Shown: positions 1 through 32,254 of the stretch, in pieces
How positions within the stretch are numbered: the stretch's first letter is position 1
Layout: every line of letters starts with the position of its first letter
NCBI RefSeq assembly: GCF_036588685.1
Contig: NC_086378.1
Coordinates: 88,288,001 to 88,352,000, forward strand
Length of the DNA stretch: 64,000 nt
Direction: 5' to 3'
Source of the DNA: Mytilus trossulus
Taxonomy: Eukaryota
The notes under the pieces: generated by a model
The model's database searches: none
Told to the model about the DNA's origin: nothing
Seen by the model: the letters and a program-made list of their open reading frames with translations, nothing else
Made by a program: the position numbers and the translations under genes

Positions 1-1071
1 ATAAATTACAAATATCTTACCTCTTTCTTCAGCTTAAACCAGAGGTAAATTACAAAGATCTTACCTCGTCTCACAGCTTTAACCAGAGATAAATTACAAA
101 TATCTTACCTCGTCCTTTAGCTTCAACCAGAGTTAAATTACAAAGATCTTATATCTTCCTTCAGCTTCAACCAGAGATAAATTACAAAGATCTTATATCT
201 TCCTTCAGCTTCAACCAGAGATAAATTACAAAGATCTTACCTCGTCTCTCAGCTCAAACCAGAGATAAATTACAAAGATCTTATATCTTCCTTCAGCTTC
301 AACCAGAGATGAATTACAAATATCTTACCTCGTCCTCCAGCTTCAACCAGAGATAATTTACAAAGATCTTACCTCGTCCCTCAGCTTAAACCAAAGATAA
401 ATTACAAATATCTTACCTCGTCCTTCAGCTTCAACCAGAGATAAATTACAAATATCTTACCTCGTCCTTCAGCTTCAACCAGAGATAAATTACAAAGATC
501 TTACCTCGTCCTTCAGCTTCAACCAGAGATAAATTACAAAGATCTTATATCTTTCTTCAGCTTCAACCAGAGATAAATTACAAAGATCTTATATCTTCCT
601 TCAGCTTCAACCAGAGATAAATTACAAAGATCTTACCTCGTCTCTCAGCTCAAACCAGAGATAAATTACAAAGATCTTATATCTTCCTTCAGCTTCAACC
701 AGAGATGAATTACAAATATCTTACCTCGTCCTCCAGCTTCAACCAGAGATAAATTACAAAGATCTTACCTCGTCCCTCAGCTTAAACCAAAGATAAATTA
801 CAAATATCTTACCTCGTCCTTCAGCTTCAACCAGAGATAAATTACAACTATCTTACCTCGTCCTTCAGTTTCAACCAGAGATAAATTACAAAGATCTTAC
901 CTCGTCCTTCAGCTTCAACCAGAGATAAATTACAAATATCTTACCTCGTCTCTCAGCTCAAACCAAATATAAATTACAAAGATCTGACCTCTTCCTTCAG
1001 CTTAAACCAGAGATAAATTACAAATATCTTACCTCGTCTCTCAGCTTAAACCAGAGATAAATTACAAAGAT
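1..1071 (-). repeat. 44-bp tandem array (~24 copies, truncated by window edge); the unit is the last 39 nt of tetraspanin exon 3 plus GTAAG
   Basis: Period 44 (ataaattaca at 1, gtaaattaca at 45). The minus-strand unit is ATCTTTGTAATTTATCTCTGGTTGAAGCTGAAGGACGAG-GTAAG. Confidence 0.95.
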
Positions 1072-4000
1072 CTGAAAACCACATATCATAATCACGAGAA
1101 TACCAAACTGAAAATTAAACAGAATGTAATTATACTTTTATGTATGAATATATATAGATAAGAAAATGGTTTTAAAGAAATTGGTCAATCATTTGAATTT
1201 TTATTTTTCAAATTTATTATCACTTGCCAGTTGCGGATGCTTCTTTGGTCGACAAAATAATAAATGATTATATTATGTTATTTAAAATCTTTCAAATTTT
1301 TCGCGGTATATAATCAGTTTTATTGAATTGAGCCCCCTTTCAAAAATTGTTTATTCGCCTTGCATGCTTCTGAATGATTACCATGGTAAATCTACATTCA
1401 TAGTTTTAATGTCAAAAAGAGCGAGTGGTTTAAAAAAGTCAATGAGTCCTCATCATAGTTCTAAGAGATTAAGGTAACACGCCATGATGTTCTTATACAA
1501 ACAATTTTATACATGGACTAGTAATAGATGACTAACCACAGACGTTTGATAGACATTGACAGATTTCAAATATTTATCTCAAAGATAAAATGGACACTAC
1601 AAATCAAGAATAAGATTTCAAGAAACCAATTGAGCAACTTCATTATTGGCTTTAAGACACAAATTATCAACGCTCTTTGATAAATCGGTTATCTAGGAAT
1701 ATCTGTAGTTTATATAACAGCATGAAGTAAAATCTTATGTTTTTCTATGGATATACATAATAATTCCTGTCCAATTCTATGGATATACATAATAATTCCT
1801 GTCCAATTCTATGGATATACATAATAATTCCTGTCCAATTCTATGGATATACATAATAATTCCTGTCTAATTCTATTGATATACTAGTACATAATAATTC
1901 CTGTCCAATTCTATAGATATACATAATAATTCCTGTTCAATTCTATGGATTTACATAATAATCCCTGTCCAATTCTATAGATATACATAATAATTCCTGT
2001 TCAATTCTATGGATAAACATAATAATTCATACATAGCTGACTTACCAAAGCCAATACTGGTACGGATCTGTAAAATATTCCTAAGAAACCTAACAGAGTT
2101 ACCAAGAACAGTATAATAGCCACAACCAGTATTCCTATAACGATCTTGGTGATGACTGATCCGACTGTAATATCGTAAGATATCGTCAACTGGTCAAACA
2201 GGACAAGAACATTGTTATCAGTGGCGATATCCCCAGATCTGTACAGAACAGCAGATACCACTATCAGTCCAATGGCCAATAACTTAAAAACAATCAAAGT
2301 GATTAAGGTCTGAACTCTAGATAGAATATATCTATATACAATAACACACATCATACCCGTAGCCAGGGGGTTTTGGAGGTTCGGACGAACACCCCCCCCC
2401 CCCCCCCCCCCCTTAAAAACAAATAAGCACTGTTAAAGTCAATGTTCTGTTCGAATTGTGACTGTTGAAGTCGATTTTGTGAGTCCAACGATCCCCCCCC
2501 TTTTTGGAAATTCCTGGCTACGGGCCTGCACATTATTAGTGAAAAAACTGTTTAGAGCTAAACATTACAAGTTTGCACTTCTTTTTAAGTGGAATGTGCA
2601 CATTATGAACATATTCGAGACTTTCATTATATGTATAAAACACAACAAGCAGCAACAAGATCCTTTATGTAAAAAATACCTTATACGAATCAGTAACATG
2701 TAGCTTTATTTAAGAATTGAATACTTCTTTTTGTAACTTTATTGGGGTGTAAAAGTGTTGACCGAAGTACATTTTGTATGAAGCGCGGAAGCGCTTCATT
2801 CTAAAAATGTGCGCGAGGTCAACGCTTTTACAACCCTATGAAGTTACAAAAAGAAGCATTCAATACTTATATAATTACATTTTTTAGCTATCGGATCATG
2901 AAAAACACGAATTTTATAATTTGTTTTTTTAATTCACCTGTGCACTTTATTTTGGAACCATACATTCCTTTTTATACTATAAAATAATCAACTCGACGAA
3001 ATATTAAAGCTTTCAATGAATTAATCTGTTCTTGGTAATTGAATTTGTAAAGTAAGATCTCACTACACAAATCCTTGGTTAAATAAAAATTATTGAAATA
3101 TTTATAGAAAATAAATACGAAAGTGAGAGAGTTCCTGCGTATATAAACTTATGAGAATACAATCTAATATCTTATAATAATTTGGCATCTTTTTCTCATT
3201 TAATCATGATGGCGCTACGGATCGTAACACCTTTAAAGTTACTATTTTCAACTTAAAACTTGACCCAGTATACCTTCTTCTTCCCTCCTTTAAGTGAGGA
3301 ACCGAATTCATATTAAATGTGTATGGTCCTGCGAAAACTTTCACAGTGTCGGGCAATACCGCTAGTCGTCTAATAGCTATTTAAGACATTCACCAATTTA
3401 CCGTAAAACTATGCTGTTTATTTCCTTCCAGAGCCTGCTTCCCAATCAATGGGAAATTGGATAATCACTTTCACTTATGAATATTGGCAGATTTTCAGAT
3501 TTTGAATTTATTTCAACACTTCGCTCCTTTTGACTTCCTTCGCACCCACAGGCACTTGTCTAAAAAAAAATCCTATATACCTTAATATAACAATTAAGGT
3601 GTATAGGATTTTTTTTTTGAGACAAGTGTCTGTGTTCGCACCCCTAAAATTCGGGCAATCCTAAAGCTTTATATTCCACGATATCCATTCCAATTTTAAA
3701 CAAGTCATCCGGACTATCAATTGAAACCTTTGAATTGTTATTTAGCGTACAGTGGATCCTTCCCTCTTTTGCTGATTTTACATTGGTCTGCTTTTTAATG
3801 TAAAAGAGTAGTCAGTTCTGATAATAATTTTGCACAGTGTAACAGTTGCTTCCCTTGTCATCTGCAGTTTTTGGAAATATACACTCTCTTCCGTTACAAA
3901 ATTTTCAAAGACATTTAATTTACCTCAAACTGCTTTTATTGTAGTATTTGGGTTTATAAATATGTATAAAACTGTAATGTTGAATTGATTAATAAAATAT

Positions 4001-6032
4001 TCATGTAAACAAAGTAAAAATGTTTACCTTTATGGATTACTCAGCTTGGAGTTATATATAAAGATTGATTTTAATCATTCAATTGTGATGTATGTGGTAC
4101 TACTGCTAGTCAGCATGTAGTTAACATTAAACTTTTGCAAATCCTACCCAGTGTGGGATTAAATATATAACAAGTTTGTAGTTTTTAAAGTTAAATCAGG
4201 AAAATCAATACAAGTATAATGATGTCTTCCTGCGCATTAACATGGTATTACATCACATAAATAAATATATATTATGTATGACAAAAAATCAAATCAAAGT
4301 TAAATGAATAAAATTACAAAGATTCAAAGCATAATTGTATGTAATGGCATATATTTTTTGCTGCTCTTTGGTCGGGTTGTTGTTTCTTTGACATGTTCCC
4401 CATTTTCATTCTCAATTCTATTTGTAAGCCCGTCTGACTTTTGGTTGCCGGATGATAAGGAGTACCACTTGAGCAAATCTTAATATTCAATATTCAAAAG
4501 TTATCTTTTAAATTGGATATTATTTTTTTCATTTAATCGTGTTTTATTTATGTGTGTGTTTTTCTTTCGGGGAAATAGGGGTTGTGGGCTGGAGGTGGGG
4601 GATAATTGAAGTTACAGGGCAAAATATTTTTAGATGTCGTTTGAGAGTTGGGCACCCTCCGCAATAAACTTTAGAATAGGGATGTTTGTTTTTTTAGGAA
4701 TTTGGGTTGTTTGGAAGTTCACCGGATTATAGTAAGTATTCCCCCTTACACACTTTTTGTCGTTTTTACTTTCTGTATAATTGTTGGTGTTTCCACTTGG
4801 ATTTATCTTTCAGAATTTGATTACCATGTCAAGGACCATGTAGTTAAGGATGTACTTAGGTGAGGTTATGCAAAAATTAAGAAATTAAGAAATTAAAATT
4901 GATACTATAAGCTGGTAGAGCATCAATTAAGGATTAAGATAAGCTAAAAATATTGATAGGTCATGGACCTCCTTTTCGAGATATTTGAGATTTAAAATAT
5001 GGCGGAAAAGGGCAGACAGCGACTTTTACTTTATATTTGCATTGCTAATATTTGGGTCTCAAATCAAAAGAAAAAAATCAAGAATCTTCTAACATTTTGG
5101 AAAATAACCTTTCATGAGCTCTTAAGTCTAATATGAAAAAATAAATGGGTGTTATGGGGCAAAATATTTTACATAGTATTGTATGGAAAAACACCAAGGA
5201 GTCTGAACATTTGACACAAATTCCAAAACCTCACCTAAGTACATCCTTAAGTACTTTTTGACAGTGTTAAAATGCAGTTTAAGAGAAATACTGTGTGTGG
5301 GGTATTGCAATCTAATTAAAAACCGATCTCTCATGCTCCCGTTTTCTGATATGTCGCGTGGCCAGAAAACGGGAGCATGAGAGATCGGTTTTTAATTAGA
5401 TTGGGGGTATTGATGACCAACAGATTACCTAATTATGTGATAATGAAGACTTTTGTGGTTTACTTCCAGTGGCAATTATTTCAACCATATTAGATCGTGA
5501 AAATATTAATTTAATATGAACATGCACTCTTGTTACATTTTACCATGGACTAGGGCATCGACCATTTATCTTGTAAAATCAAATGACTAAATTCGAGTAT
5601 GTTATTCACATCTATATTATTTTGAAGTCATTTTTTTGTATTTCATTTGCATTTGTCACAAGTATTCATTATGTTTACTTTTATACATATATTTTTTTTC
5701 ATTTTAGCAATGTATGATAATGTCAAAGTCTATATGGAAGTTAATAATTTTCTGTACAAATACTAATACTTTATAATAATACTTTAGGCCGTGTTACATT
5801 TTAAAACTTTATAAATAGTTGAAGTGTTATTACATTGAGATAAGATCAATTTGAAACAAATAGAAATAAAGGCCGCTTTGGTGTTATTGAGATTGTCATG
5901 TAAGCGAAAAAATATATTGTGTTAGAGGTTGTCGAACAAAAGAAAAACATATATACATACCAACAAAATGAAATTAAGAAAAACTAACACCAATTTGGCA
6001 AATTTCGCAAAGCCCGGTGATAACAATGGCAT
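1033..6032 (-). CDS. Tetraspanin-like protein, 5' part (TM1-TM3); the gene continues beyond the left edge
   Basis: Exons 6032-5961 (MPLLSPGFAKFAKLVLVFLNFILL), 2282-2046 (LLAIGLIVVSA...LLGFLGIFYRSVPVLAL) and 1107-1033 (FGILVIMICGFQIFVIYLWFKLRDE). All are phase 0 with GT-AG sites. Tetraspanin hallmarks: K..L.FLN in TM1, LGFLG at the TM2 end, polar Q in TM3. The EC2 CCG motif lies outside the window. A possible 5' UTR exon is at ~6890-6944. Confidence 0.8.
1743..2027. repeat. 32-bp minisatellite (~9 copies) starting ~15-20 nt into the intron after the tetraspanin exon-2 donor
   Basis: Unit ttctatggatatacataataattcctgtccaa. Confidence 0.9.
2352..2528. mobile_element. MITE with CA(G/T) termini, poly-C tracts and a 5-bp TSD
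   Basis: TIRs catacccgtagccagg / cctggctacgggcctg; flanked by cacat on both sides. Confidence 0.75.
2716..2864. mobile_element. Palindromic (foldback) non-autonomous element
   Basis: attgaatacttctttttgtaactt...tgaagcgcggaagcgcttca...aagttacaaaaagaagcattcaat forms an imperfect ~70-bp-arm hairpin. Confidence 0.7.
3547..3634. mobile_element. 88-bp palindromic MITE with an 8-bp TSD (hAT/P-type)
   Basis: TIR cacaggcacttgtct / agacaagtgtctgtg; TSD ttcgcacc at 3539-3546 and 3635-3642. Confidence 0.85.
3644..3800 (-). pseudogene. Possible decayed LINE ORF1 C-terminal fragment
   Basis: The minus strand reads KEGRIHCTLNNNSKVSIDSPDDLFKIGMDIVEYKALGLPEF*, resembling ORF1p C-termini. Recognised by eye only. 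Confidence 0.3.
4848..5246. mobile_element. Non-autonomous DNA transposon with TTAA TSD and GG termini (Kolobok-like)
   Basis: Perfect 20-bp TIR ggatgtacttaggtgaggtt / aacctcacctaagtacatcc, with TTAA on both sides. Confidence 0.85.
5308..5403. mobile_element. 96-bp palindromic MITE with a 9-bp TSD (Mutator-type TSD length)
   Basis: Perfect ~41-bp arms; TSD ggggtattg at 5299-5307 and 5404-5412. Confidence 0.9.
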
Positions 6033-6619
6033 CTTTCCCTGCAAATAATGAAAAATACAGACAAATTATTCAATTACGTACTTTGGTATGGAAAGACACT
6101 ACTAGTATAAAGGTCATAATCTAACTGATTGTTTGATTGATATTTTGGTCACTTTTGCTAACCTATAGGCCACTCATGTGGCTTAATCTACCAATTCTAG
6201 AGAGGAAGAAGCGGATACTAATCCTTGGCTAGCGAGGTGACAAACATTTGAACCTGGAAAAGTTTTGATTTTTAAAAAGTGCCTTAACATTTTTCTATGT
6301 GAGCAGGGTGTTTTGGTGTAGACAAAACTGTTCGTCTTGAAACGTCTTAGGTATGGAAAAACTATGATAATCGTTTCAGATATGGAAAAACTTAATTGGA
6401 AAATCGTTTCAAATATGGAAGAACTTGGAAAATCGTTTTAGACAAAAGATAAAAAGAATCTCTAGATTACAATTCAAATCATAATTCAAAGATTTATTCA
6501 TAGTCGGCATATTATACAACAAATAAACATAAGCTCTCTGATCTTTTATAACCGACAAATACATACATTTACATAATAATCATACAGAATACTAATATTA
6601 AAACATGAAAGACATAGAA

Positions 6620-6702
6620 CAAAAAGTTTTATTTTTTTGAAAACATAAAATGTATTTTAAATATATATACATTTTATGTTTTCAAAAAAATAAAAACTTT
6701 TG
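6620..6702. repeat. AT-rich inverted repeat (hairpin)
   Basis: aaagttttatttttttgaaaacataaaatgtat / atacattttatgttttcaaaaaaataaaaacttt. Confidence 0.7.
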
Positions 6703-8274
6703 TGCATGAAAAATAGATTTACACATCTTGGTTCTGTGCAGTGTTAACACGATCATGTCTGTCAATTTCTTCTAATGAACCTATATAATTTAGCATCTGG
6801 AATTGTAAGTATTCGAGTTCACCGAACACTGGTAAGGATAAAATAGTATTTTAAATTTGCCCAATGTTTTTAAACTTTAAGAAACTAACCTTGGACTTTC
6901 TGTTGCTGACAAGGGTGTTGCTTCTTGTACAATGGTCAATGCACCTGAATAATTAGTTCATTACAGGTGAGAACAGTTCAAATCTATTTCTGACCCGGAA
7001 AAAGTTCACAGGACACCAGTTCAAGTTAGTCCTGTTCACAGAGTGACCATTCTAACAAAAGCATGTCATTTTTTGAAAGTTTACTTTGTTAAAAATTTAT
7101 TGCAGCCGAAACCAAAAATTTCTTTTTACGTACGTGCATGATATTGTTTTAGTGTTATATCATCGCATGAATAGCTCTTATGGTGTTATACTTTTATTTT
7201 GACATAATACAGAAGACAAGTTTAATTTAAAGTCGGTATATGCAATACAAATACAAACATAAACTCTGAAGAGCTTTTAAAACCTACAAACAAAAATAAA
7301 ACAAAACATACATAAATTAAACATACATAGATTAAACATATAAAGCATAGTTCGTTTCAGTATGTAAACATGCAGCACACAAGTTCACCCCGTATAACCC
7401 CGATACAAATGAATCCGGACGTTGACGCGTTCGAAGCGATAATCAGGACAACATTTGGGATGACAATAATTTCGAATGCCTCTCTAGAATTTATTTGAGT
7501 ATATATAAATATGTCAATGAGCATGTTAGTTTGTTTATTAAATTATACAATTGTTGTAAGTTTTAGATATTGTATAAAACGTTGATAAAACTGCTAGATG
7601 CAAAACGCACAGACATGGTGCAATTTCATACGGTTTATGATATAAACAATGCTGAATATCTTTTCGTGCATACAACTTTGCGTATTAATACCTTCAGCAA
7701 TACTAAATAACTATAAATTGAACTTCTACGTGCCTTCAAATGTTCCCTAGAACTAAGAATAAACACAATATCATACAAAATAAATTTTTTCTTACTGTAT
7801 TGTTCGTGTCACCAAATGTGTCTCGTTCGTTGTGCGTTTTGAAATAATCACTGTACAGTTCGTTGACAAAAACCGTCACAAATCACTTTCTTGTCAAGGT
7901 TTTTTAGATGGTGTCGGCGACCTCTTTCTGTATTTTATTGTAAATGTCCATCTATTAACTTAGTCAAAGTAGGTGAACTTAAAATATCTGTCATACAAAG
8001 CCAAAATTGAAATATTTAACCATCGTACATCTGCTTGGAATGTTTCTATTGAAAATTGAGACTGTCAATGTTTTGCCAGATGAAATGAACAGTTAATAAA
8101 TATATTCCAGAGGAAGTAAAGTTTCAAAAAATATATAATGATTTCCTTTTTACAATTTGAGGCTCTTCCAAATGCCGATGTTGGTCCAAATTCGCCTAGA
8201 CGAAAGCAGACACACATGTAGGAGCTCGTTGAACTTAGTTTGCCGAATCCCATAGATGGCATTCCAACTGCTTT

Positions 8275-8742
8275 ATTTTTATGCCCCACCTACGATAGTA
8301 GAGGGGCATTATGTTTTCTGGTCTGTGCGTCCGTCCGTCCATCGTACCGTTCGTTTGTCCGTCTGTCCCGCTTCAGGTCAAAGTTTTTGGTCAAGGCAGG
8401 TTTTGATGAAGCTGATGTCCAATCAATTTGGAACTTAGTACACATGTTCCTTATGATATGATCTTTCTAATTTCAAAGCCAAATTAAACTTTTTACCCCA
8501 ATTTCACGGTCCACTGTACATAGAAAATTAAAGTGCGAGTTTCAGGTTAAAGTTTTTGGTCAATGTAGTTTTGGATGAAGTTGAAGTCCAATCAACTTGA
8601 AACCTTATACAAATGTTGCCTATGATATGATCTTCGTAATTTGAATGTTATAATATTTTTTGCCCACTTTCACGGTCCATTGAACATGGAAAATAGTAGT
8701 GCGAGTGGGACATCCGTGTTCTTTGGACACATTCTTGTTTTT
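8275..8742 (+). mobile_element. Helentron-associated (HINE/DINE-like) non-autonomous element
   Basis: T-rich start, atgcccc...ggggcat inverted repeat, (GTCC)n microsatellite, internal duplicated block, and a 3' hairpin gtgttc...gacac before a T-run. Confidence 0.6.
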
Positions 8743-9569
8743 ATTATTTTTATTACATATGAAGCTTTGTAGATGCGGAGTGATGGCCCGTGAGACAACT
8801 TTCCACCAAAGTTTAAATGAAGTGGGTGTATAAAGCAACTAATATAGTCTAATGTACAACATTTAAAACAATAAGGAAAACCTATACCATACAGTCGGCC
8901 AAAAAAAAAAGCACAGATAAAAAAAAAATTGATGAAAAATTAAAACGATAAAACTAACGGTTATTAATTTATAACTTATGAATTATGTAAAAAAGAAAAA
9001 GAATGACAGATCTATATAAGCAATGTACTACAGGATCCTGACGTTAGACCAACAAGAAAAAAGTGCGGCGGGATTAAACATGTGAGCCCCCAAACCTCTC
9101 CTTAATCTAGAACACTGGTGTAACAGCACAACATGATACAAAAGTTCAGTTGCAATTGGCTACACTCAAAATGTCGGTATAAGGCACAAAAACGAAAAGC
9201 GAATTACAACTAAGGAGTAAATCATGTATCTAAAGTGTTAATCAGTATATCCTACGCTTTTAGGTAAAGACGTAATAAAAAGCATAAACTTGTGCAATGC
9301 CAAATATAAACAGTATCGAGAGGATGTACGGTATTATGAGTTCTCATAAGTGTGCATAAATCGTAATAATGTTAAGTGATGTTTTGATTTATCAGGTACA
9401 GCAAAACTTTTTATATTATGGCTCAAACAAAAAATTTGCCACAATATAGAAAGTTTTGCTGTACCTGTTTTTTTTTTAATTATGAAAGAATTTGGTGAAA
9501 GGTGACTGGGAAATATACTATTAGATATGATCACTTTGGTCTTTTTCCGATCGGCAGTAAAAACTGACA

Positions 9570-9915
9570 GAAGTTGGCCACCCGTTTAGTTGTGTGGGAT
9601 GTAAAAGTACACAGTCACGTCCAGTCCGAATGGGAATATAAAATCCAATGTCTCGTGTAAAGAGAGTACCACGCTAACTACACTGTACAGACCCCTGCAA
9701 AAACTCCAAGAGAGGTCCATAAATATCCTGTTGAAAGGCACCATTTGTGTTCTTATAAAATATACATCATTTTATTCAGTGGCAGTCAAAACGTCTCTGA
9801 CGTAATTCTGGAGGGTCTCCTTCCAGGACTTGCATGCAGTATGTGTTGCTACTTTGTGCTTGTCCTGAACATGCATGACATATTTGCAAGTCAACGTTAA
9901 TCAACCAACATTCAG
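9570..9915 (+). mobile_element. Degenerate SINE-like repeat
   Basis: Central gtctcgtgtaaagagagt block and a 3' end acgttaatcaaccaaca resembling mollusc SINE tails. Recognised by eye. Confidence 0.4.
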
Positions 9916-11644
9916 TTATTACGTACGCGTGTCATAAACAAATAAAAGGGTCTATATATTGTAAAGTACCAATATGAAAGAAGAAACACAGCAAATGTCT
10001 AAGGTTAGGTTGGTGATTGATGCTTTGCTCAACCCATAATTTACCAATGACGCCAAAGATAACTGGGGATTATAAATATGGTCCTTGTGGTCTTCTGTGA
10101 GATAAATCAAAATTTGAATGAAATACATATGGGTGGGTATAAACTTTAAGCTTATGAATAACCAGAATGACCTGACCAATTTAGATGTTTGCACCACAGT
10201 AGAAAGACTGTTATGATCGAGGAATTTAAGCATAACCTTTATACCTTAAAAATTAAACAAACACAAAACCATAATTGAAGAAAGCAAACCAGTTAATTCC
10301 TTCATCTTTATATCTTCACATTAAAGTAACTGTTACTATTGATTGCTATCAGTTACATGTTCCTTGCATACACCTATTCTTTAGCCTTAATGTGACTCTA
10401 TGGTAATCCTAGGACCCGCCTCTGAGATTCAGGTCAAAAGGCTTAACCTATAATCCATTGATTGTTTTTGATTGCTTTCTATATCAAATAGAAGATGTGG
10501 TATTGAAACAGCTCTTCGCAAGAGACCAAACGAAACAAAAATTACCAACTATAGGTCACCGTACGGCCTTTAACAATGAACAAAGCCCACACCGCTATAA
10601 AACACACCGAAATGACAAATGTAGTACAATTCATACGAGAAAACTAACGGCCCAATTTATGCACAAAATAGTGAAAAAATTTAATATAAAACTACTTAAT
10701 TACACGCTCCTGGCTTTGGACAGGTACATACAGAACATGGCGGGATTAAACATGTTAGCAAGCACCCAACCCACCACCTAACCGTACATTGACTGTTGTA
10801 TGGTAAACAATTTCAAAAATGCTATAAATTAGATATTCGGACGTGTGTATCTGTATGCGTAGTCATAGTTGCATCTGTCGAGTTATTGGAATTTGTATTT
10901 TCCTACCAATTCACACTTTCGAATGTATAACATGAGGATTTTTTTACATGTAAAAATTCCTCCGAGAGTTTTCCGACAATATAACGGACATTATGGGTTG
11001 CTGTCTGCATGTTATGGGGGTAAATTATTATTTTCAAACATGCATATTGGTTATAATCATATCAAAGCATAATTTAATACATGCAAAATTCATTGACAAA
11101 CGCAATAGTGTGTCAACGAAGCGTACAGTATAAAAAGGTGTAATGACAACGAAGCGTACACAACATGAAAATAAAGACAATTCAAAACGTGTATTGTTTT
11201 TGTTTCTAGATACAACATAAACAAACGATCTTTATAAGTTTGTTAATTTATACTATGAAGTTTTCAAAAATGTATGTTTTAAAAACTATGAGGTACGAGA
11301 AACATTAAGTTTTGGATGTTTAAAAATACCAAGCACGTTTTATCATTGATTCCGTCGTGCGTTTTTTTATGTTTGTATCTAAAAATGTCACATATTTGAA
11401 AAACCTTTTAGTAACTAATGAGTATTATGGCAAAGAATATATTGGAGCAAAATATCCGAAGAATAGATATTGGATTGTCTTTAAAAGTATGAATTCCTTA
11501 CTGTCTGAACTCAGTGTTACACGGTGTGTTCGACTCGAACGCGTCAACGTCCGGTTTCATCTGTATCGGGGTTATACAGGGTGAAGTTCTTAAAAGATTC
11601 TTACAAGTTAAACACACACTGAAAAATTGAAAACAGCACGTTAA

Positions 11645-11850
11645 ATAATTTCTCGCGTCCGGAGCGCTTTTCTGGATTTACCTTCATCAGCAACGCTCAA
11701 AGCCAAACATTTGAAATCCTAGGATGTATAAGCATCGAAACCGTTGGAGAGCTATATGTAAAAAAAAACTAAAATAAATAGCCAAATTCATATAAAGTCA
11801 ACTTTGCCTGAGATGTTGAAACCTTAGTTTCTTAATAATTTCAAAATTTT
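11645..11850 (-). ncRNA. Degenerate minimal hammerhead-ribozyme motif (11654-11697) within a retrozyme/Penelope-associated repeat
   Basis: Minus strand: GCGTTG CTGATGA AGGTAAATCCA GAAA AGCGCT CC GGACGC. The CUGANGA and GAAA core boxes are present; UH has mutated to CC. Confidence 0.5.
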
Positions 11851-12496
11851 AGAAAACATCCACGAATGAGATACACACACAAAAGCAAAAATAAAATAGT
11901 TTACACATTAAAAACACATATAGATAAGTTGAGTAACTAAATGAGCACAAAGCAGCAGAAGCACTATAGTAAAGATAATAAAAAAAAATAGATTTGCCAT
12001 GCTGAAAATAAAGCATGAACAAAAATAAAAGAAATTAAATGTAGGCAAAACATTGGCATGATCTGCCAGACCAAGAATTTATCAAGTTCTCGAATTGATT
12101 TAAAGATGATTGCTTAGCTCATAGCTTAGCACCTGCATACCTTAAAGATTGTATGTCGTATGCATACAGTTGTTCTTATATGTGGTACCGTAGTTCGGCT
12201 GAATTCTGGTATCTGAAAGAGTAAGTGTATTAAATCATGGAGTTAACAGGACGATCTTTATTAATAATTTTGCAATCTTCAATAGCCAATGATCTCAATC
12301 TACTTATTTTTAAAGACGATAATTTTGATTTGAAGAGTAGATCTTCATAACTTGCTGAATAGTCTTCATAGATAAACCCTAGTGCATTCTCTTTTGCTTT
12401 TACAAACAGTTATTCTTATTACTCACAATGGGCTTTCGTATGAATTACAATAGGCATTGCTTCGTTAACAAAAAGGATTTCCTATACATGTATCTC

Positions 12497-12693
12497 GTGG
12501 GTCTCATTGGGGTCTAAGCATGACGCGGGATTGCCGATTTTTTGTAAGCGTGACCCGTGAAAATTATTGTGTCGTGAAAACGTGAAATGAGGTCTAGCGG
12601 GACCCGGGAAACGACAAAAAATTGAGAATTGCTTACGTACATAGTTTAAGCGGGGTACAGGATTCTAACAAAGAACCCCCCAATGAGACCCCC
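12497..12693. mobile_element. MITE with a 6-bp TSD
   Basis: TIR gtgggtctcattgggg / ccccaatgagaccccc; TSD tatctc on both sides. A related left end lies at ~38547. Confidence 0.75.
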
Positions 12694-13406: not shown

Positions 13407-13959
13407 AGAATAAGAATAAGAATAAGAATATTTTATTACTCCAATCAAGGGCCCTTGATGGGCAGCATAACATGTACACATAGAACAATACATCATGATT
13501 TGTAACAGAAAAACAGTTTTATATAATAAAATATTAAAAAAGTTCAGACAGGTGTTATTATCTTCATTATATAAAAATCATATATACATTTAATTCCAGG
13601 CACGATCAGAACCATAAAATTATTACAATTTTCAATAATTGTTATTACTTACATTAATTAACATTTCGTCTAACATCTAGACATTTAATAATATAGCTCC
13701 CTAAATATTTAAGTATAGACACATTTTCATTAATAAATAACCAAACAAATTTTGCCTCATTTGAAAGATGTATAAAATTAGGACAAATACAGTTTATCTC
13801 CTTGAAAAATATCTCCCTATCATTTGTGTATGCTGGACAACTAGTAATAAAATGTTGTTCATCTTCAACCAGATTTAGAGTACATTTCTTACAAAGCCTT
13901 TGATCTCTTTCTATAAATAATGTTTTATACCGGTCTCTTTCTATTTTGAGATCATGACA
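13407..13959 (-). mobile_element. 5'-truncated LINE 3' fragment (RTE-X/CR1-like C-terminal CCHC region) with an (ATTCTT)n tail
   Basis: Minus strand reads CHDLKIERDRY...QRLCKKCTLNLVEDEQHFITSCPAYTNDR; AATAAA is followed by (attctt)n at 13407-13438. Confidence 0.75.
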
Positions 13960-14265
13960 AAAACAAAACCAGCATATCCTTAATTGGAAATAAAATATGT
14001 TCTATATATAAATCATGTTTTAGTCCCACCCTTTAAGGCATTTAGAGTTTTAACATAGAAGCTAGGGCTATATATATCCTTGGAAAAGACAAAGACAGTG
14101 CCATTCCACAACAAATGGAAGTTTTTAACGACCTTGACTGGCTATACAGCCTTTGCACGGTCGGTACTTATACTCCAATTAACCAGATATCGATTTTATA
14201 CTCTATTTTTCTACCACGGAATTTATCCTTTACCGTCTTTGATCCCACAACAATTAATTTTCATA

Positions 14266-14285: not shown

Positions 14286-17200
14286 ATGAATTTAGAACTT
14301 TTAGGTTTGTAAAATTATGAATTAAATGACAATCTACACAACTGTTTGGTAAGCAGGCATATAAAATACAAATAGGTACACTGTGTTTTTGAAAACTACA
14401 TTGCAATAGGAGTTTAACGCTGATGGTACAGCTTTTCGGATTCTGTCATTGTAAAAAATGTTTTGTTTACATCTCGAATATAATAGGGCTCTTCACGGTT
14501 AGTTCGGCCATATTGGATAGGGGGCAAAAATACGGGAAAACATCATAGAAACAGAGCAGTTGCTTGGAAACACACATAGGATTTCCCATACTTTCATACT
14601 ATTTCCACCTCTTTCTAAGAAATCTGCCCCCTATCCAACATGGCCGAACTAACCGTGAAGAGCCCTATTTTTACTGATCAAGTTAAAAAGCATAAAGATA
14701 TATCAGGACCGGATCCAGCCATTTCAAAAGAGTGGTTCCCAATCCAGAATAAAAGGGGAGGGTTCGAACCCCAGCACCTTCTGCATTTGTTCTGGATCTG
14801 ACACTGTATGTATGTATGTACAGACATGTAGATCCGAAACCGTAGATCCCACTGTTTACTGAGACCCCTCGAGATCTGTGAGGCTACAGTGAAATCCGTA
14901 TACACTTCCAATGGGTATTAATGTAGAGTAGCCACTATCATATTTACAATGTTTAATATGTACATATATGATGTAAAATGACAATTCCCACCCCAACACC
15001 AGGAAGAATTAGGAAAATGGACAGAATCTGTCATTATGGTGGAGAAAGCCGAAGTACGCGGGATAAGACAAAGCAAAGTGATTTCTGAAAATTGATCTCT
15101 AGGTCAAAGTTGGAAGCAACTTTGACCAACTGAGACCCCCATACAATTAATGTAGTATCCGTTCTACATTTGTAGTTTAAACTCAGGTCTGAGTTCCAGA
15201 GATGTGTATATCAAAATTTCCTGTTTCATGAAAAATAAAATCCTTTTTAGTCTATAAAACCAAAATTACAAAATGACAAAATGCATTGCATTCCTTGAAT
15301 GAATTTTTGTTTCTTTTAATTACAGAATCTTTTGGACAGAACTATCCAGAGGTGAGTTAATCTGTTCAAATATGAAATTGGGTAAATGATGTTTAAAAGC
15401 AGACATATTTTCTCCAAAGTTATATTGAAGTATTAAATTAAATTGTTATGCCCACATGTACAAGTGAGTGAAGGCAACAGGGAAATTAACCTTGACCTTC
15501 CCATTTTCATTTCTGTACTTTAACTTTAGTCATTTGTCAGTTTGCCTCATGCAAATTTTCTGAAATTAAATGGAATATGCTCAAAATAAAAATTAACCCT
15601 TTTTAAAGAGTTATGCCTCTTTATAAAATTGCAAATGTTTTCATATGTAAGTAAGTAAGTAAGTAAATTATTTATTATAGTGACATGTGTAAATTATGTA
15701 CAGATTATAAACATATAATATACAATGATATATGATCAATAGCAATACACCCGGCCCAATGGACCTATAAGTCACCTCAAATAAAGTAAAACAATTATAT
15801 CACGTTCTAATCGTTCGTTGACGTAAGTAAATTTCAAAAATATATAGACATAAAAATATTTGTAAACAAAAATTTAAGCTTTAAATATGTAAAAAAATTA
15901 AGTGTTATATAACAACTGACGTCTGATATGAAATGCATGAACTATATATTTTGCTAATTTTCTTATGTGGAAAGACATTAAAAAGTTCAATTTGTCAGCA
16001 TGATTCAAATCTGTGAAATTTTCCTCAATTAAAAGTTTACCAAAAAAGTTAACTCGACATTCAATATACAATGGACAATCAAACATAAAATGGAACTCAG
16101 TTTCAGTTTCTTGATTTTTACAAAATATACACAGTCTTTCTTCTACACTTTCGTTTGAGTATCTACCAGTTTCCACTCTTAATGGTAAAATTCCACTTCT
16201 AAATTGCGCTAAATGTGACCGCTCAATTTTACTCAAGTTCAAATTCACATAATTTTCAGTTTCAAAGACTGTTTTAAAGTTCCTATATGTTCGTAATTTT
16301 GAAACGTCTTGGACGGAATTCCTCCATATATCTGAATACAGACGAACAATGTTAGTTTCAACCAAAGATAAATCGACCTCTGATTTCAGTTCGTAAAAAT
16401 GTCCTAGTTCAAGCTGGTCTAGTATATCCTTTACTTCACTACACCAGTTACTTTTACAACGATCATAGTCAATATTGAATGCTAATTTGGTGATGCGGTT
16501 GTTGTCAAATCGAATGAGTCTATTCCAGTATCTCACCATATTGATCCAACGCCGATACTGACTCAGGATCCAGCCGATATCTCCGTGTATAGCAAGGATA
16601 GGTGCAAATCTGTGTACTCCTAAATAGTAACGAATAGCCCTGTTCTGAATATTGTCTATTGACTGATATTTTCGGTATCCCCATACACCAGAGTCAGACG
16701 AATAATCAAGTATATGAACAATACATGAGTTGAATAATTTTTCATATGATTTATATCCAAAGTCCTTAATATTATGAATTTTAGCAATTATATTCCCAAG
16801 TGCTCGTCCGCCACTTTTCGCAAGAAGATCCACATTTGGCAAAAAACTGCCGTTGTAGCTAAATGTTATACCTAAGTATTTGTACTCGTTAACTAATTCC
16901 AACTGGTTCCTGCCCACGGTGAAATTAAACTCAGTTTGTTTCGATTTCCCTTTCCTAAAATGAATACATATGTGTATAATAACTAACAAACGCATACATA
17001 ATGCTAAAATGTAAGTTAACAAAATTGGCACTGCCAATTTGGCAGTCAAAATTCAAATTTAAGCAGTGAGTCACTTATCGTTCTAGAATTATGCCTCTTT
17101 TTAACTTTTTAAAATAGCAAAGCTTGAGCTGTGGCATTCCTGACCTCAGACACATTCTTCTTTTATTATTGTAAATTTAACTAAAAAAGGAGATTTAGAG

Positions 17201-20200
17201 CATGTTATCAGATCACACAAGAAAGATTATTATTTGTCAAGTACAAATGTAGTTCATTGAAATGTGTAGTTTTAATAAAAGATATACCGGTATACATTTG
17301 TATGTCTGTATTTTAAAAATCTGAAATGATAAAAATTATTTAAAATTAAAAGTTGTGCAGTTTTACAGCTATGACCAAAAATGATGACATTACCAGAACT
17401 ATAGTTATTACAAAATCATTTTACTTGGTAAAAAAACAACTTTGTAAATGTTTGTGTTAAAGTACATTGTACATTTTTTGTATTTGTTGTACATATACGT
17501 GTACATAGATTTTGGTTCACTGTCGATTATTATCAAGCTGTTTTCAGATTTGCAAAGATTGAGCCTATGCAAGATCAAGGTTGATAATTCACATCAGTGT
17601 TTTAAATAATATTAAAACAGTATCATGAGTATGTCTCATATATATTTACATGGTTTATGTACATGATGTACAAAATGTATTTGCTTGTTATTCCCTGCTC
17701 ATGTTTTTCAACACATACTTTAAATATACAATGTACATGTATATACATTATATACATTTTATACTGTAAAATCTTTGTGATATTTACAAAATCTGAAACA
17801 CTTTTCAGCTCTAAGAATAGAACATCTGCATGAACATGAACCTATCCATCATTTTAAATCAAAATTTAGATGATTTTGTAGCATAGGCGGAACCAGGGGG
17901 CCCACCTTTTGTGGGGAAAATTTAGTTGATTATATGGGGAATCACTGAAGCGTGACTGGAGTGGGGCCCACCTTAGGTCAGTCAGCAGGCCCCCTTACAA
18001 AAAGTTCTGGATCCGCCACTGTGTAGGACTTTATATTTTTAAGAAAAGTATGGATTCTCCTTGTTTTATGTACAAAAATGATGTACAAGCTTACACTATC
18101 AGAATAACAAACATAATTGAGATATCTTTCTTTTTACAAATTCTTGACAGGAATCTCAGTATTATTGGATGAATACATTAACTACATGTAGACCATAAAC
18201 AACAAAATTATTTTTTAATACAAAGAAACATCATCACTTGATCATATATATTTTTATTGGCTATATTTTTAGTGACAGGCCTTTAAATAGAACCTTTTTA
18301 GACATAGCATTTTTCCTTGTTTTCGTTTTTGATTTTGATTAATAACATGTATATATTCAGTATATTTGTTTACATTTATTGTGTACATGTCATTGTTTTT
18401 TTCCCCACAGGAATTTGATGGAGCATTAGATTGTGTTAGTATAGCTATAACATGTGCATTCAATAGACATGGGACATTATTAGCAGTCGGTTGTAATGAT
18501 GGACGTATTGTTGTGTGGGATTTCCTTACAAGAGGGATTGCTAAAATCATCAGTGCTCATGTACATCCAGTGTGTACTTTGTGGTATGTATCAAATATTT
18601 TTTATCAACTACTGCACCTAGTTAATTGTCGTTCTGAAATTAAAAACCTTTTGGTTGTAGATTTTGTATATATATTATATAAGTCTAAAAAAAACAGCAC
18701 TTTTGGACGATGGTTATATACCAAAAAGATGTTATAAAATCGAGATGACAAATTTTTCAGCTTAACAAATAACCTTTAACAGTGTCTATAATTTTATCAA
18801 AATAGCATTGATATATACAGTTTTTTTATAGTTTTTTTTCAATTAACACCAGTTATTGAAATATTACTATCATGCTTTGAATATGCACATGATATTTGAA
18901 TACATTTTTAACAAATATTAATTTTTCAGTTGGAGCAGAGATGGACATAAATTACTGAGTGCAGCGACAGATAATACAGTATCAGTATGGGATGTAGTGG
19001 AGGGGGAGTGTGATAAAACATACAGATTTCCCTCCCCTATCCTTAAAGTACAATTCCATCCTAGATACAGGTAACTAGATAACAAATCATACATGCTAAG
19101 AGACATCTTATAAAAAAAGTGGTTTCAAATTTTCTATCAGTGCTTTTTCCATCTTTGTGTGTTAGAAATAATTTGAAGATGAATATTGATATGTTAGGAT
19201 TTTTTTAAGCCACATTACATTTTGAGTTTACTGTAGCTCAAAAGTGAGTTAACTTTTTTTGTAGAACACAGTTTTTAGTATGTCCAATGAAACATCCTGC
19301 AGTTAAAATGGAGATTGATGGAAAACACTCAGTTATTCCCCTTGATGATGATGTAAGTACTAAGTTATTCCCCCTTGACTATGCTATTAGTATATAGTTA
19401 TTCGTCTTACAGCACATTTCAGTCAGTATGTAGCTAATGGTAATATCTTTGGTTAGCTTGCTTGTTAGCTGAACCGTGAAGTCACTGCAAGGTAAGGTAA
19501 ATTTCCCTCCTTTAATAGTAGACTTGCCCAACTGATAAAAAATGTATCTCTCTGTAGGACTAAGCTACTATTAAAGGAGGGTAGTTTACCTTACCTAACA
19601 ATAACTTCACGGTTCAGCTAACAAGCAAGCTAACCAAGATATTACCATTAGCTACATACTGACTGAAATGTGCTGTAATGACGATGTATATTTACAACTT
19701 TTTGTTATGAATGATTGATCATTTTGATTTTTAGAGTTATTTCCCTTTTAAAATGCAACAGTGAAAAATTGATTCAAACAAAATCAGAAAGTTGGTATAA
19801 ACAATGAAAATAATGCAATGAATCACTTATTATTCTTTATTTCAAATGAAAAAAATCCTTCAACATATATTGACAATCTGTCTCTTTTGCTGATTTAGGT
19901 AAAGAACTAGACCAATTGTGTTTCGCTATTTTACAATCTAAGTATACAGTTTATGTCATGCATATTACAGTTAAAACAAAATTAACAATAAATCCAATTG
20001 GTAGGTTTATTTACATGCAGAGTTTGTCAAAACTACAAATTAGATATCCAAAGGAAAAAAAAACCTTCTATCAGTCCATTAATATCAGTGTCAACAAAAA
20101 CTAAAAAATGCATAGAAGTCAAATTTTCAGTCTTTTATTGTCTTTTTTTTCTTCCTTTGTAGTCAGATTTAAACATCGTTGCATCATATGACAGACGAGG

Positions 20201-23200
20201 GACAAACATTTATACAGGAAATGCTAAAGGAAGGGTGAGTCTGTCTGTAAAAATGAAACACAAATAATTCAAAAGATTGGATGAGTTATTCCTTACTCAG
20301 ACAATCTGCTGAGTAAGATAGTGTTTATGTCCCTTTTTGTGCAATTTTTGATTTCTTATTCCATTCTGCACATTTAACGGTTTAGAAGAAATATTTAACA
20401 CTAATAAAAAAAAATCAAGTTAGAAATCTGAGACAATATTTTGTAAATTAATTTCTCTACCATGAAAAATTCTTGTGTTAGGTCAAATTAAGGTATCATT
20501 TCAGTGTTAAAAACTATGGCAAAGTATAGAATCAAATATGTGTAAAATGTTTTATATCATTCTAACATGCCTTATCAAGTGCAAATTTACAAATTTTACA
20601 AAAATATACAAACTAGACGATGTTTTCAAAGTTTGTTGATGAATTCATAAGTGTAGACATGGAAAGAAGTCTGACTATAAAATATTTAAATTATAAATTT
20701 CATATAAAAAAAAAGATGTGGTATGATTGCCAATGAGACAACTATCCACAAAAGACCAAAATGACACAGACATTAACAACTATAGGTCACCGTACTTTCT
20801 ATCTTTTAAGCAATAACATGGTCAGGTATGGCACTAAATCCTCAAGTGGTATATCAGTCTCTAGGTTCATTTTAGCAATTTTGATATAACATAAGGAAAC
20901 AAAATAAATATTCCATAACATTTAAGGATTCTTTAGAGAAATATTGAGATTGGCTTAATACATTTAGTTCAGATTATAAGGTTTCATGAGCTAGAATAAT
21001 ATTATTATACACTGACAGAGAGGAAATATATATATGGCATGAATGGTAAAAAAACACTGTTATTTTATTCTTAGTTATTTACACATGTATTGAAGTTATC
21101 TAATTGATGAATATTATGCTGTTTTATTTGTAGTTGTTGCTGTTCCATAAGTAATTTCAAGAGTATTGTAAAATAGATATATTGATTTTATTGTTTATAT
21201 TTTTTCAGATCCTTGTATTTTCTGAATCAGATTTAAAGTTACTAGCATCATTCAGGGTAACCACAGGAACATTAAATACAACAGCAATTAAATCTATAGA
21301 ATTTGCAAGGAGGGGGAGGTAAGAATGTTTGGATGTTTGGATGTAGCTACAGAAATTAAAAATTACCATGTTTTCAATATCTTAATGTGAAAGCTAGATA
21401 CAAAATGACAAGGCACATATGTGTATAAACTCATAGAAGCAAAATGTTGATTTTCTGTAATTTTAACATTTCACATAAAGAACAAACTGTGAATAAAAGG
21501 CTTCAAAATTTTTTTCAGACTGAAAAAAAAGAAAAATAGAACATCATTAATTTTATTCCACAAAAGTTAAAATGTTTATTCAGAAGTGATATGGTATTAG
21601 TATCTGCATTCTTGATGTATTATTTATTTATTAATTGATATTTGTATGCCCCACCTTCCATATTGAAGTGGTAGACATTACCTTTTCCAGTCTGTATATA
21701 TCCATCTGTTTGTCTGTCTGGTTTGAGATAGTTTAAAGTGAAATTATAGTCACATCAACATATGAGAGTTATAATGTACTTACTGAAAAGCTCAAAATAG
21801 ATGACAAATTTTAAAGGGTTTGGTTCTTATTTAATGTTTCAATGAACATAAACCTGTGATAATCCGCAGTAGAAAGAACAGCGTCCTGATGATGCATTTT
21901 CTTTTTTAGCTGTTTCCTGGTAAATTCAGCCGACAGAATAATCCGTGTATATGAATGTGGTGAAGTATTGGCTTGTGGTAAAGATGGGGAACCAGAACCT
22001 GTACAGAAACTACAAGATCTCGTTAACAAGTAACTTATTATTATGGAGTATATATTCAGAACTTGAAGTAAAATATCCTATTTATCATTATTGTGCATTA
22101 GCTTTTCATTTGAATTTAAAACACTATCATATCTTCTTTCTTTTAGGACATATGCAAAAATATACGAATAAAAAATAAGTTTCTTAATACACCATCAAAG
22201 ATTTTTTTTAAAAAGACCGACAACCAAAACAGAACAAGTTACATGCTAGATGTATGTACACATAATATAAAAGGACAGACAACTCTGCATTGAAATCATA
22301 ATGACATAGAAGTTAATGACTTTTAGTCCCTATACAGCCTTGTTAGTCCCTATACAGCCTTGTTAGTCCCTATACAGCCTTGTTTGTCCCTATACAGCCT
22401 TGTTAGTCCCTATACAGCCTTGTTTGTCCCTATACAGCCTTGTTAGTCCCTATACAGCCTTGTTTGTCCCTATACAGCCTTGTTAGTCCCTATACAGCCT
22501 TGTTAGTCCCTATACAGCCTTGTTAGTCCCTATACAGCCTTGTTAGTCCCTATACAGCCTTGTTAGTCCCTATACAGCCTTCAAATGGGAACAAAAGATG
22601 GTTCAGTTTAAAATCAATCTTAGATAATGATTGGTTGTTTTTTTTCGTTGAAAGACCATAGCTAATTTTTTGGATGCTATTTTCAAGGCAATGTAAAGGA
22701 TGTTATCATGTTCTCATTCTAGTGGACTGAGAAAAAACACATCTCAGTCAGGAGGCTTGAATTGAAAAATTATCACACAAAAAGATCAAAGCAAGAAAGT
22801 ATAGATATATCCTAAAATAATTACACAACTGAAAACTCATGTTCAGAAATATGATAACCTCTTATGTGAACAATGACATCAGATACTGCAGATAATACTG
22901 AAATCAACATTAAAATACTGTAAATTCAGAAATTATTGCGAGATTTTTATTATTGCAAATAATGCGACTGAGTTGTAAACGCAATAATTCAAACTCGCAT
23001 TTTGTAATTTTTTAACTGAATTAAGCCTGACTTTTCTCAAAATCGTAAAAATTAAAATCGCATTCAAGTGTAAAATGACAAAATCGCAATAATAAATGAA
23101 CGCAATAATTTCTGAATTTACAGTAATCCACTAACAATGAAGCTAGCTAAGTTATCTATAATCATTGGTTGAATACTGCTACACGACAATACAGTTTTTT

Positions 23201-32068: not shown

Positions 32069-32254
32069 GGGCTATTCCAGAAAAAAATGTATGGGGGTTG
32101 GAAGGCAGTTTTTGTCAGCACCTGCCACCCATACAATTGTAATTGAGAATTAAAGTGCATTATAGTGTGAAAAGTTGCTCTGATATCCATCACCCATGTA
32201 TTATTAATACAATGTGCCTTCCAACACCCCATACATTTTTTTCTGGAATAGCCC
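32069..32254. mobile_element. MITE with ~40-bp TIRs, GGG termini and TAA/TTA flanks (Harbinger- or Kolobok-like)
   Basis: gggctattccagaaaaaaatgtatgggg / ccccatacattttttttctggaatagccc. Confidence 0.85.

What the first reader, a model, noticed from the sequence alone, without database searches (positions are those of the whole stretch)
7381..11588. 4.2-kb element with CAC termini, 5-bp TSD and RSS-like TIR spacing: candidate Transib/RAG-like transposon derivative
Seen: 49-bp TIRs (CACCCCGTATAACCCCGATACAAATGAATCCGGACGTTGACGCGTTCGA; 3 mismatches) and a perfect AAGTT TSD. An 18-bp inverted motif sits symmetrically ~460 bp inside each end (7850-7867 / 11112-11129, 16/18 match). The TIR parses as heptamer CACCC(C/T)G + 12 nt + ACA(A/G)ATGAA, loosely like a 12-RSS (CACAGTG-12-ACAAAAACC). 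Established: CAC ends with a 5-bp TSD typify Transib and RAG-like transposons, and RAG-like elements are known from bivalves. Inference: a non-autonomous member mobilised by such a transposase. I found no transposase ORF inside; the interior holds nested repeats and unexplained unique sequence.
Basis: partly seen in the sequence, partly recalled or inferred. Interest (0 to 1): 0.75.

Follow-up and report, generated by a model that had tools for sequence, protein, structure and literature searches.

The report
Mussel gene-less transposon, five-base duplication
A 4.2-kb repeat with inverted ends and a five-base flanking duplication, with no detectable gene and copies in other places of what is likely mussel DNA, is likely a passenger cut-and-paste transposon; its ends and AT-rich insertion sites do not match Transib/RAG elements, so it is likely moved by a different, still unidentified transposase of the same wider clade.

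Summary
The element is 7386-11583, with 49-bp TIRs (46/49), CAC ends, AAGTT on both sides and an inner inverted motif 465/455 bp from the ends. Three other copies and four sequencing runs show a multicopy family, likely of Mytilus. The TIR 'mismatches' are fixed left/right differences, and the interior is shared by the family, not unique. No transposase remnant was found.

The RSS/RAG reading is weak. The 'nonamer' match is at chance level (32% of random positions do as well), the RAGL AAA block is missing, and four insertion-site 5-mers hold 2 of 20 G+C against 53 of 80 for RAGL TSDs.

Best reading: a non-autonomous TIR transposon, likely mobilised in trans by a CACTA/Chapaev-side (CMCT-clade) DDE transposase with a 5-nt stagger (0.40). 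An atypical Transib/RAG1L partner (0.27) or a non-CMCT enzyme (0.24) remains open. The TSD length rests on one paired copy.

New detail: each inner block ends in an inverted TTGACA...TGTCAA pair, spaced 23 bp on the left and 12 bp on the right, the only two such pairs in the window. It is a post-hoc lead, not evidence of a 12/23 rule.

The parts
7386..11583 (.). whole non-autonomous TIR element, 4,198 bp
   Evidence: other copies stop matching at the same termini
7381..7385 (+). left copy of the 5-bp direct repeat AAGTT (likely TSD)
7386..7434 (+). left 49-bp TIR, begins CAC; the first 80 bp (to 7465) are identical in 3 of 3 left ends
7850..7897 (+). left inner block: 18-19-bp inverted motif ending in TTGACA (7863-7868), 23-bp spacer, TGTCAA (7892-7897)
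   Evidence: also present in L002 (spacer 22) and L006 (spacer 23)
8281..8737 (+). nested Helentron-associated (HINE)-like insertion in a T run: 5' hairpin, GTCC microsatellite, two ~167-bp units, 3' hairpin; absent in copy L002
   Evidence: architecture compared with passages of PMC7492417
8771..9087 (+). degenerate remnant of a dispersed high-copy repeat (SINE-like label recalled), also present in L002
9393..9467 (.). 30-bp-arm hairpin (93%) inside the element, role unknown
10476..10759 (+). second remnant of the same dispersed repeat; other copies near 20698, 31801, 43581, 58248 and 58532
11093..11129 (-). right inner block: inverted partner of the 18-19-bp motif, with a TTGACA (11093-11098), 12-bp spacer, TGTCAA (11111-11116) pair
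11144..11160 (-). extra copy of the inner motif, 33 bp nearer the right end
   Evidence: (D16, 94%)
11535..11583 (-). right 49-bp TIR; the first 54 bp are identical in L003
11584..11588 (+). right copy of AAGTT (likely TSD)

Best explanation
This is a gene-less element with 49-bp inverted ends, a 5-bp flanking repeat and dispersed copies, likely a non-autonomous cut-and-paste transposon of Mytilus mussels that is likely moved in trans by a DDE transposase of the CMCT clade (CACTA/EnSpm-Mirage-Chapaev side) rather than by a canonical Transib or RAG1L-RAG2L enzyme. Shown: fixed left and right termini, an invariant first 80 bp, a conserved inner inverted block ~460 bp inside each end, different AT-rich flanks in four insertion sites, no coding remnant, and a later HINE-like insertion in this copy. 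Inferred: the transposase binds the TIRs and probably the inner TTCGTTGWC / TTGACA...TGTCAA motifs as subterminal sites, cuts flush at CAC, and joins the ends to an AT-rich target with a 5-nt stagger; gap repair then gives the 5-bp duplication. The interior is passenger DNA built from old repeat remnants. That it is a non-autonomous TIR transposon at all is about 0.95; the confidence given is for the CMCT-but-not-Transib/RAG1L partner.
For: Mobility: 3 of 9 metagenome matches to the TIR core are true copies with unrelated flanks (L002, L006 left ends, L003 right end). In 4 of 4 runs the depth jumps from single-copy flank to roughly 40-750x in the middle bins and 86-2,900x in the end bins, and listed contig pieces start at 7384-7385 (3 pieces) or stop at 11582 (1 piece) (the tool warns this is no copy number). 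Constraint on ends: 80/80 identity over the first 80 bp in all three pairs of left ends, against 91-94% over bp 81-440. No gene: 0 Pfam hits in 6 of 6 frames; 2 chance-level PDB hits (E 0.62, 0.96) in 6 frames. [quoted passage not shown] Chapaev has invariant CAC ends, and Chapaev3 inserts in an AT-rich A-TWA-T site (PMC4079192 passages). CMC elements occur in all mollusc genomes analysed, while Transib gave 1 of 14,275 DDE elements (PMC10294476 passages). Stagger length can change within one lineage (5, 3, 2 bp; bioRxiv 10.64898/2026.08.26.747230 passages).
Against: No autonomous partner was seen, so the enzyme is inferred from ends only. CMC elements are described with 2-4-bp TSDs, and 5 bp is the Transib hallmark within the clade. 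Only one copy has both ends, so the TSD length rests on n=1. The empty site was not seen: it is not among the 15 of 1,898 joints listed, and junction patterns found 0 matches in two non-animal collections. The target composition rests on 4 sites. Only 2 of 4 sites have TWA next to the terminus, so it is not a plain Chapaev3.
Confidence: 0.4

Rival explanations
1. One reading: the partner transposase clusters within Transib or RAG1L, as an atypical lineage with a changed heptamer and an AT-rich target (a RAG1L-RAG2L transposon specifically: about 0.05 of the total).
For: CAC termini plus a 5-bp duplication are the textbook Transib/RAGL pair. RAGL elements exist in oysters and mussels (passages). 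TIRs and TSDs are labile within Transib, and the authors warn that these should not override transposase homology.
Against: Heptamer 4/7 and 5/7; nonamer at chance level with AT at positions 5-6. RAGL consensus 8 and 7 of 17, no AAA at 8-10. Targets 2/20 G+C against 53/80 in the 16 RAGL TSDs of supplementary file 2 (Fisher p 6e-6 by base, rank test p 0.001 by site). The terminal TIRs are symmetric, without a spacer difference. Transib is nearly absent from mollusc ORF surveys.
Confidence: 0.27
2. The partner belongs outside the CMCT clade, for example hAT5 (5-bp TSD) or an unclassified DDE lineage, and CAC is a coincidence.
For: hAT5 families make 5-bp TSDs, hAT elements prefer AT-rich regions according to the main text of PMC1131882, and the family has repeated subterminal motifs.
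Against: The third base of hAT termini is reported as always G, in 22 families (Fig. S7 legend of PMC1131882); here it is C. The same paper's Table S2 legend says GC-rich for hAT, so its AT-rich statement is inconsistent. No hAT5 termini were available to compare (listing only).
Confidence: 0.24
3. AAGTT...AAGTT is a chance match in AT-rich DNA, and the family makes no duplication or a shorter one (for example a Chapaev3-like 3 bp).
For: Only one paired copy. AAGTT is nearly palindromic, and moving each end out by one base gives a perfect 3-bp repeat. L002 and L003 have TAA/TTA next to the terminus.
Against: The base next to CAC varies among copies (T, A, T on the left; T, A on the right, read inward) while the first 80 bp are invariant, so the terminus is CAC and the 3-bp parse fails. 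The chance of the 5-mer match is 0.002-0.012.
Confidence: 0.08

Closest known systems
Transib superfamily (Kapitonov and Jurka 2005, PMC1131882; passages and section 9 read)
   Same: CAC termini, 5-bp flanking repeat, TIR length of the same order (49 against 38 bp)
   Different: No CACAATG-like heptamer (CACCCYG), no A-rich nonamer at 12 or 23 bp, AT-rich rather than GC-rich targets, no transposase seen
Protostome RAGL transposons and their non-autonomous forms (Martin et al. 2020, PMC7204232; passages and supplementary file 2 read)
   Same: Bivalve host, CAC termini, 5-bp repeat, kb-size non-autonomous form
   Different: Fails the CACTWMCAAACKTYKBB consensus and the AAA block; all 16 listed RAGL TSDs have 2 or more G+C, all 4 sites here have 0-1; 4.2 kb against 0.7-2.6 kb; no RAG1L/RAG2L remnant
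Chapaev / Chapaev3 and CACTA-EnSpm (CMC group; PMC4079192, PMC12730594 and PMC6004678 passages)
   Same: Invariant CAC...GTG termini; AT-rich target in Chapaev3; CMC is present in mollusc genomes
   Different: Described TSDs are 2-4 bp (TWA in Chapaev3), here 5 bp in the one paired copy; TWA lies next to the end in only 2 of 4 sites
hAT5 (cited in PMC12730594; original Repbase report not seen)
   Same: 5-bp TSD
   Different: Terminal CAC does not fit the reported invariant G at position 3 of hAT termini
KolobokP (PMC9587614; search listing and supplement search only)
   Same: Mytilus elements with ~450-bp terminal units
   Different: KolobokP units are direct repeats with 4-bp TSDs; here the ~460-bp spacing is in inverted symmetry, and none of three TIR motifs occurs in its supplements (one file cut)

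Membership tests
Non-autonomous TIR (class II) transposon | terminal inverted repeats with sharp boundaries shared by dispersed copies | tested here: met
Non-autonomous TIR (class II) transposon | target-site duplication | tested here: met
   5-bp repeat in the one paired copy; empty site not observed
Non-autonomous TIR (class II) transposon | no transposase ORF | tested here: met
Transib | 5'-CAC termini | tested here: met
   5 of 5 ends seen
Transib | 5-bp TSD | tested here: met
   one paired copy only
Transib | CACAATG-like heptamer plus A-rich nonamer at 12 or 23 bp, with conserved positions 5-6 | tested here: not met
Transib | GC-rich target sites | tested here: not met
   2 of 20 G+C in 4 sites
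Transib | partner transposase homologous to the RAG1 core | not testable with these tools
   no genome held; no remnant inside
RAGL (RAG1L-RAG2L transposon) | protostome TIR consensus with AAA at positions 8-10 (TR2) | tested here: not met
   8 and 7 of 17
RAGL (RAG1L-RAG2L transposon) | GC-rich 5-bp TSD | tested here: not met
RAGL (RAG1L-RAG2L transposon) | RAG1L and RAG2L genes in an autonomous partner | not testable with these tools
   no long copy available
CMCT clade (broad) | 5'-CA..TG-3' termini and 2-5-bp TSD | tested here: met
CMCT clade (broad) | DDE transposase with C(2)C and H(3-4)H motifs | not testable with these tools
   no partner seen
Chapaev / Chapaev3 | CAC...GTG termini | tested here: met
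Chapaev / Chapaev3 | 3-4-bp TSD (TWA between A and T for Chapaev3) | tested here: not met
CACTA/EnSpm | 2-3-bp TSD | tested here: not met
   TSD lengths from passages
hAT5 | 5-bp TSD | tested here: met
hAT5 | hAT-type terminus with G at position 3 | tested here: not met
   (legend on 22 hAT families; hAT5 itself not shown)

The most novel reading that the evidence does not exclude
Mussels carry an undescribed Transib/RAG-related transposase lineage that has switched to AT-rich targets and pairs its two ends through inner bipartite sites about 460 bp inside the termini, where inverted TTGACA/TGTCAA hexamers are spaced 23 bp at one end and 12 bp at the other: a 12/23-type, one-helical-turn asymmetry in a bivalve transposon.
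Probability: 0.05. Interest if true: 0.8.

Novelty: new variant of a known kind. Interest (0 to 1): 0.3.

Why it matters
As it stands this is one more bivalve DNA-transposon family, of interest mainly to TE curators. Its mix of CAC ends, a 5-bp duplication and AT-rich targets fits none of the CMCT lineages in the papers read, so its autonomous partner would show how stagger length and target choice evolve in the clade that gave rise to RAG. If the 23/12 inner spacing were conserved and needed for transposition, it would bear on the origin of end asymmetry (the 12/23 rule). The case also shows that CAC plus 5 bp is not enough to call an element RAG-like.

Tried and rejected
No genome is held for this window, and the metagenome loci are not linked to held genomes, so paired copies and autonomous partners could not be listed.

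TIR or left-end patterns: 0 matches in viral contigs and genome contigs. Of the 9 metagenome matches, 6 (L001, L004, L005, L007, L008, L009) share only the 20-mer and were dropped as chance. Empty-site junction patterns: 0 matches, uninformative because these collections hold little animal DNA.

A long (~500 bp) decayed TIR: bp 51-430 score only marginally above controls (2, 20 and 11 of 500 controls as high for three left ends), and the non-inverted control is nearly as high (29 of 500), so it is not accepted; only the 431-520 block is significant.

Hidden coding sequence: the lowest stop density (3 per 200 codons) was reached by 24 and 27 of 300 shuffles. An exon-like stretch at 9754-9897 had no candidate. 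One minus-strand frame (residues 55-400 of 8782-10581) gave 0 of 2,033 candidates; the other frames were not searched in that database. The 8138-8275 stretch found only ORF calls on other copies (P0001-P0003).

RNA: Rfam gave 0 hits at gathering score in the window, and 9 sub-threshold hits in 7000-12300, the best being miRNA models on the 9393-9467 hairpin, read as shape matches. The hammerhead-like stretch in the right flank did not fold better than shuffles (z +1.31).

Literature: TIR motifs were absent from the 12 of 33 supplement files searched of PMC10294476 and from the 4 files of PMC9587614. Earlier scan findings: nothing by sequence, place or relatives.
Full report
1. Observation. The element runs from 7386 to 11583. 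Its ends match at 46 of 49 positions and then fall to background. AAGTT flanks both sides. With the CAC termini, 5 is the only perfect direct-repeat length among 1-10; moving each end out by one or two bases gives 3-bp and 1-bp repeats, which follows from AAGTT being nearly palindromic. The chance of a 5-mer match is 0.002 at window composition and about 0.012 for a 90% AT target. The inner inverted motif is present (I14) at 465 and 455 bp from the ends. No other TIR copy lies in the window.

2. Host. No genome is held. A peptide read from copy L002 matches the last 22 residues of a gene model named neurotrypsin-like [Mytilus trossulus] at 21/22. Runs that hold the stretch include several labelled mollusc metagenome and five coded organisms. 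The window is about 32% G+C with spliced-gene fragments (WD40, DUF2053, weak tetraspanin). Mytilus is therefore inferred at genus level.

3. It is a family. Of 9 metagenome matches to the TIR core, 3 are true copies: L002 (left 1.2 kb, 93% and 86%), L006 (left 0.8 kb, 89%) and L003 (right 93 bp, 97%). The other 6 share only the 20-mer and were dropped. All three copies switch to unrelated flanks at CAC. The base beside CAC varies, so the terminus is CAC. Left ends carry the left TIR version and the right end the right version, so the three 'mismatches' are fixed asymmetries. The first 80 bp are identical in all three pairs of left ends, against 327-338 of 360 further in; that is unlikely without constraint (below 0.001). 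Four DNA runs (4 of the 22 listed) were laid on 6400-12600. The bin 6814-7020 is near single-copy depth, middle bins of the element are about 40-750 times deeper and end bins about 86-2,900 times. The tool states that this is no copy number, so only 'many copies' is claimed. The interior is thus shared family sequence, and deeper ends suggest members with other interiors (inference). The empty site is not among the 15 of 1,898 joints shown, and no loose end at the termini is among the 24 of 7,244 shown.

4. Interior. There is no coding remnant. The longest stop-free frame is 122 codons, inside a repeat remnant. Pfam gave 0 hits in 6 frames read through stops; PDB sequences gave 2 chance hits in 6 frames; stop density is not unusual; targeted protein searches found only ORF calls on other copies or nothing. 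The stretch 8281-8737 is a later insertion: it is absent in L002, has depth above 10^6 in three of four runs, and has the hairpin, GTCC microsatellite, ~167-bp units and T-rich site described for oyster HINEs (PMC7492417 passages). Remnants of a dispersed repeat lie at 8771-9087 and 10476-10759 (the SINE label is recalled). A 30-bp-arm hairpin lies at 9393-9467.

5. Test of the RSS/RAG reading. Transib termini are CACAATG, a 23-bp spacer and AAAAAAATC, with nonamer positions 5-6 conserved, and targets are GC-rich (PMC1131882 passages and section 9). Here the heptamer scores 4/7 and 5/7. The best nonamer (spacer 12) scores 5/9 and 4/9 with AT at positions 5-6, and 32% of 20,000 random window positions reach 5/9 at one of six spacers. 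The protostome RAGL consensus (PMC7204232 passages) is met at 8 and 7 of 17 positions, without AAA at 8-10. By Repbase's rule for non-autonomous elements (same TSD length, at most one mismatch in positions 1-11; PMC4455052 passages) it would not be filed with RAGL. The four insertion-site 5-mers are AAGTT, ATTAA, TTTTT and TTACT: 2 of 20 G+C. The 16 rows with a 5' TSD in supplementary file 2 of PMC7204232 give 53 of 80 (p 6e-6 by base, 0.001 by site), and RAGL-A TSDs are 82.5% G+C (PMC10629977 passages). Against genome background (32%) the AT bias is modest (p 0.02). Against this reasoning, a 2026 preprint shows Transib relatives with 5-, 3- and 2-bp TSDs and altered termini (10.64898/2026.08.26.747230 passages; its Table S2 was not seen), so end features cannot exclude Transib.

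6. Inner blocks. Left bp 431-520 and right bp 421-510 are alike in inverted orientation (0 of 500 GC-matched controls as high). Bp 51-430 are only marginal and bp 521-900 are at background. The motif TTCGTTGWC occurs 4 times in the window, 3 of them in these blocks, and its core CGTTGAC is also in both TIRs in the same orientation. Each block ends in TTGACA followed by its reverse complement, 23 bp later on the left and 12 bp later on the right. These are the only two such pairs within 40 nt in 64 kb. About 0.7 pairs are expected by chance in the window, but only about 0.0004 at these two given places if independent. L006 keeps 23 and L002 has 22; a one-base deletion at 7883 is a minority form in all four runs. 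Only one right block was seen. The 11-bp difference is one helical turn and equals the RSS difference, but the pattern was found after the fact, the motifs are palindromic partners rather than heptamer and nonamer, and they lie 460 bp inside. I treat them as likely subterminal protein-binding sites and the 12/23 figure as a lead only. Published asymmetric RAGL/Transib TIRs are terminal (PMC9435367 whole text; PMC8355894 passages).

7. Mechanism. Shown: ends, boundaries, dispersal, end conservation and lack of a gene. From established knowledge of DDE transposons: a transposase supplied in trans pairs the ends, excises the element and inserts it with a staggered cut, whose repair duplicates the target. 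Inferred: a 5-nt stagger, an AT-rich target, and a CMCT-clade enzyme. The CMCT lineages mostly share CA..TG ends and 2-5-bp TSDs (PMC12730594 passages). Chapaev has invariant CAC ends, and Chapaev3 uses an A-TWA-T site (PMC4079192 passages; PMC4411706 passages). CMC is present in all mollusc genomes analysed, while Transib gave 1 of 14,275 DDE elements (PMC10294476 passages), and CMC-EnSpm is active in oysters (10.64898/2026.02.10.705023 passages). Odds: CMCT outside Transib/RAG1L 0.40; Transib/RAG1L 0.27 (RAG1L-RAG2L about 0.05); non-CMCT 0.24; duplication not 5 bp 0.08.

8. Novelty. Nine paper searches listed no description of this family. TIR motifs were absent from the supplements searched (21 of 33 files of PMC10294476 were not searched and may bear on this). 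Repbase and Dfam could not be consulted and may already hold the family. It works like a non-autonomous CMCT-type transposon. It fails tested features of Transib, RAGL, Chapaev/Chapaev3, EnSpm and hAT, so it is filed under none of them. Verdict: a real element, an over-read RSS resemblance, modest interest (0.3), and one testable lead.

Noticed in passing
window 11584-11990 and about 7260-7385: Both flanks are themselves repeated DNA, so the element likely sits inside another repeat. The minus strand near 11655-11700 has a CTGATGA...GAAA hammerhead-like core as in Penelope-type repeats (label recalled); Rfam gave no match and folding was not better than shuffles.
   Followed up: partly
window 8138-8275; P0001: A Mytilus trossulus neurotrypsin-like gene model ends in 22 residues read from another copy of this element (21/22 identical): exonisation or an annotation artefact. 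P0002 and P0003 are ORF calls on more diverged copies.
   Followed up: partly
window 8281-8737: HINE/Helentron-like insertion, present here and absent in L002; useful for ordering insertions.
   Followed up: yes
window 9393-9467 and 6619-6703: Near-perfect hairpins with 30-bp and 37-bp arms, one inside and one outside the element.
   Followed up: no
window 9505-9918: Depth is higher than in the neighbouring interior bins in all four runs, suggesting a third old repeat remnant.
   Followed up: no
window 2007-2432 (-), 18339-18737 (+), 26985-27320 (+), 42584-42925 (+), 46780-47082 (+): Host exons: weak tetraspanin (E 0.044), WD40 (RBBP5-like, name recalled), DUF2053 (TMEM147-like, name recalled).
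   Followed up: partly
window 13654-14001 (-), 15898-17052 (-), 25699-26103 (+), 55333-56365 (+): Fragments that look like LINE 3' ends; zf-RVT at E 0.0018 for 55688-56362, no Pfam hit for 15901-17052.
   Followed up: no
window 1-1075, 27954-28907, 52235-55250, 63343-63728: Long tandem arrays.
   Followed up: no
window 14482-14669, 32066-32257, 22916-23125, 19407-19678, 12499-12691, 4844-5250: Short elements with inverted ends, likely MITEs.
   Followed up: no
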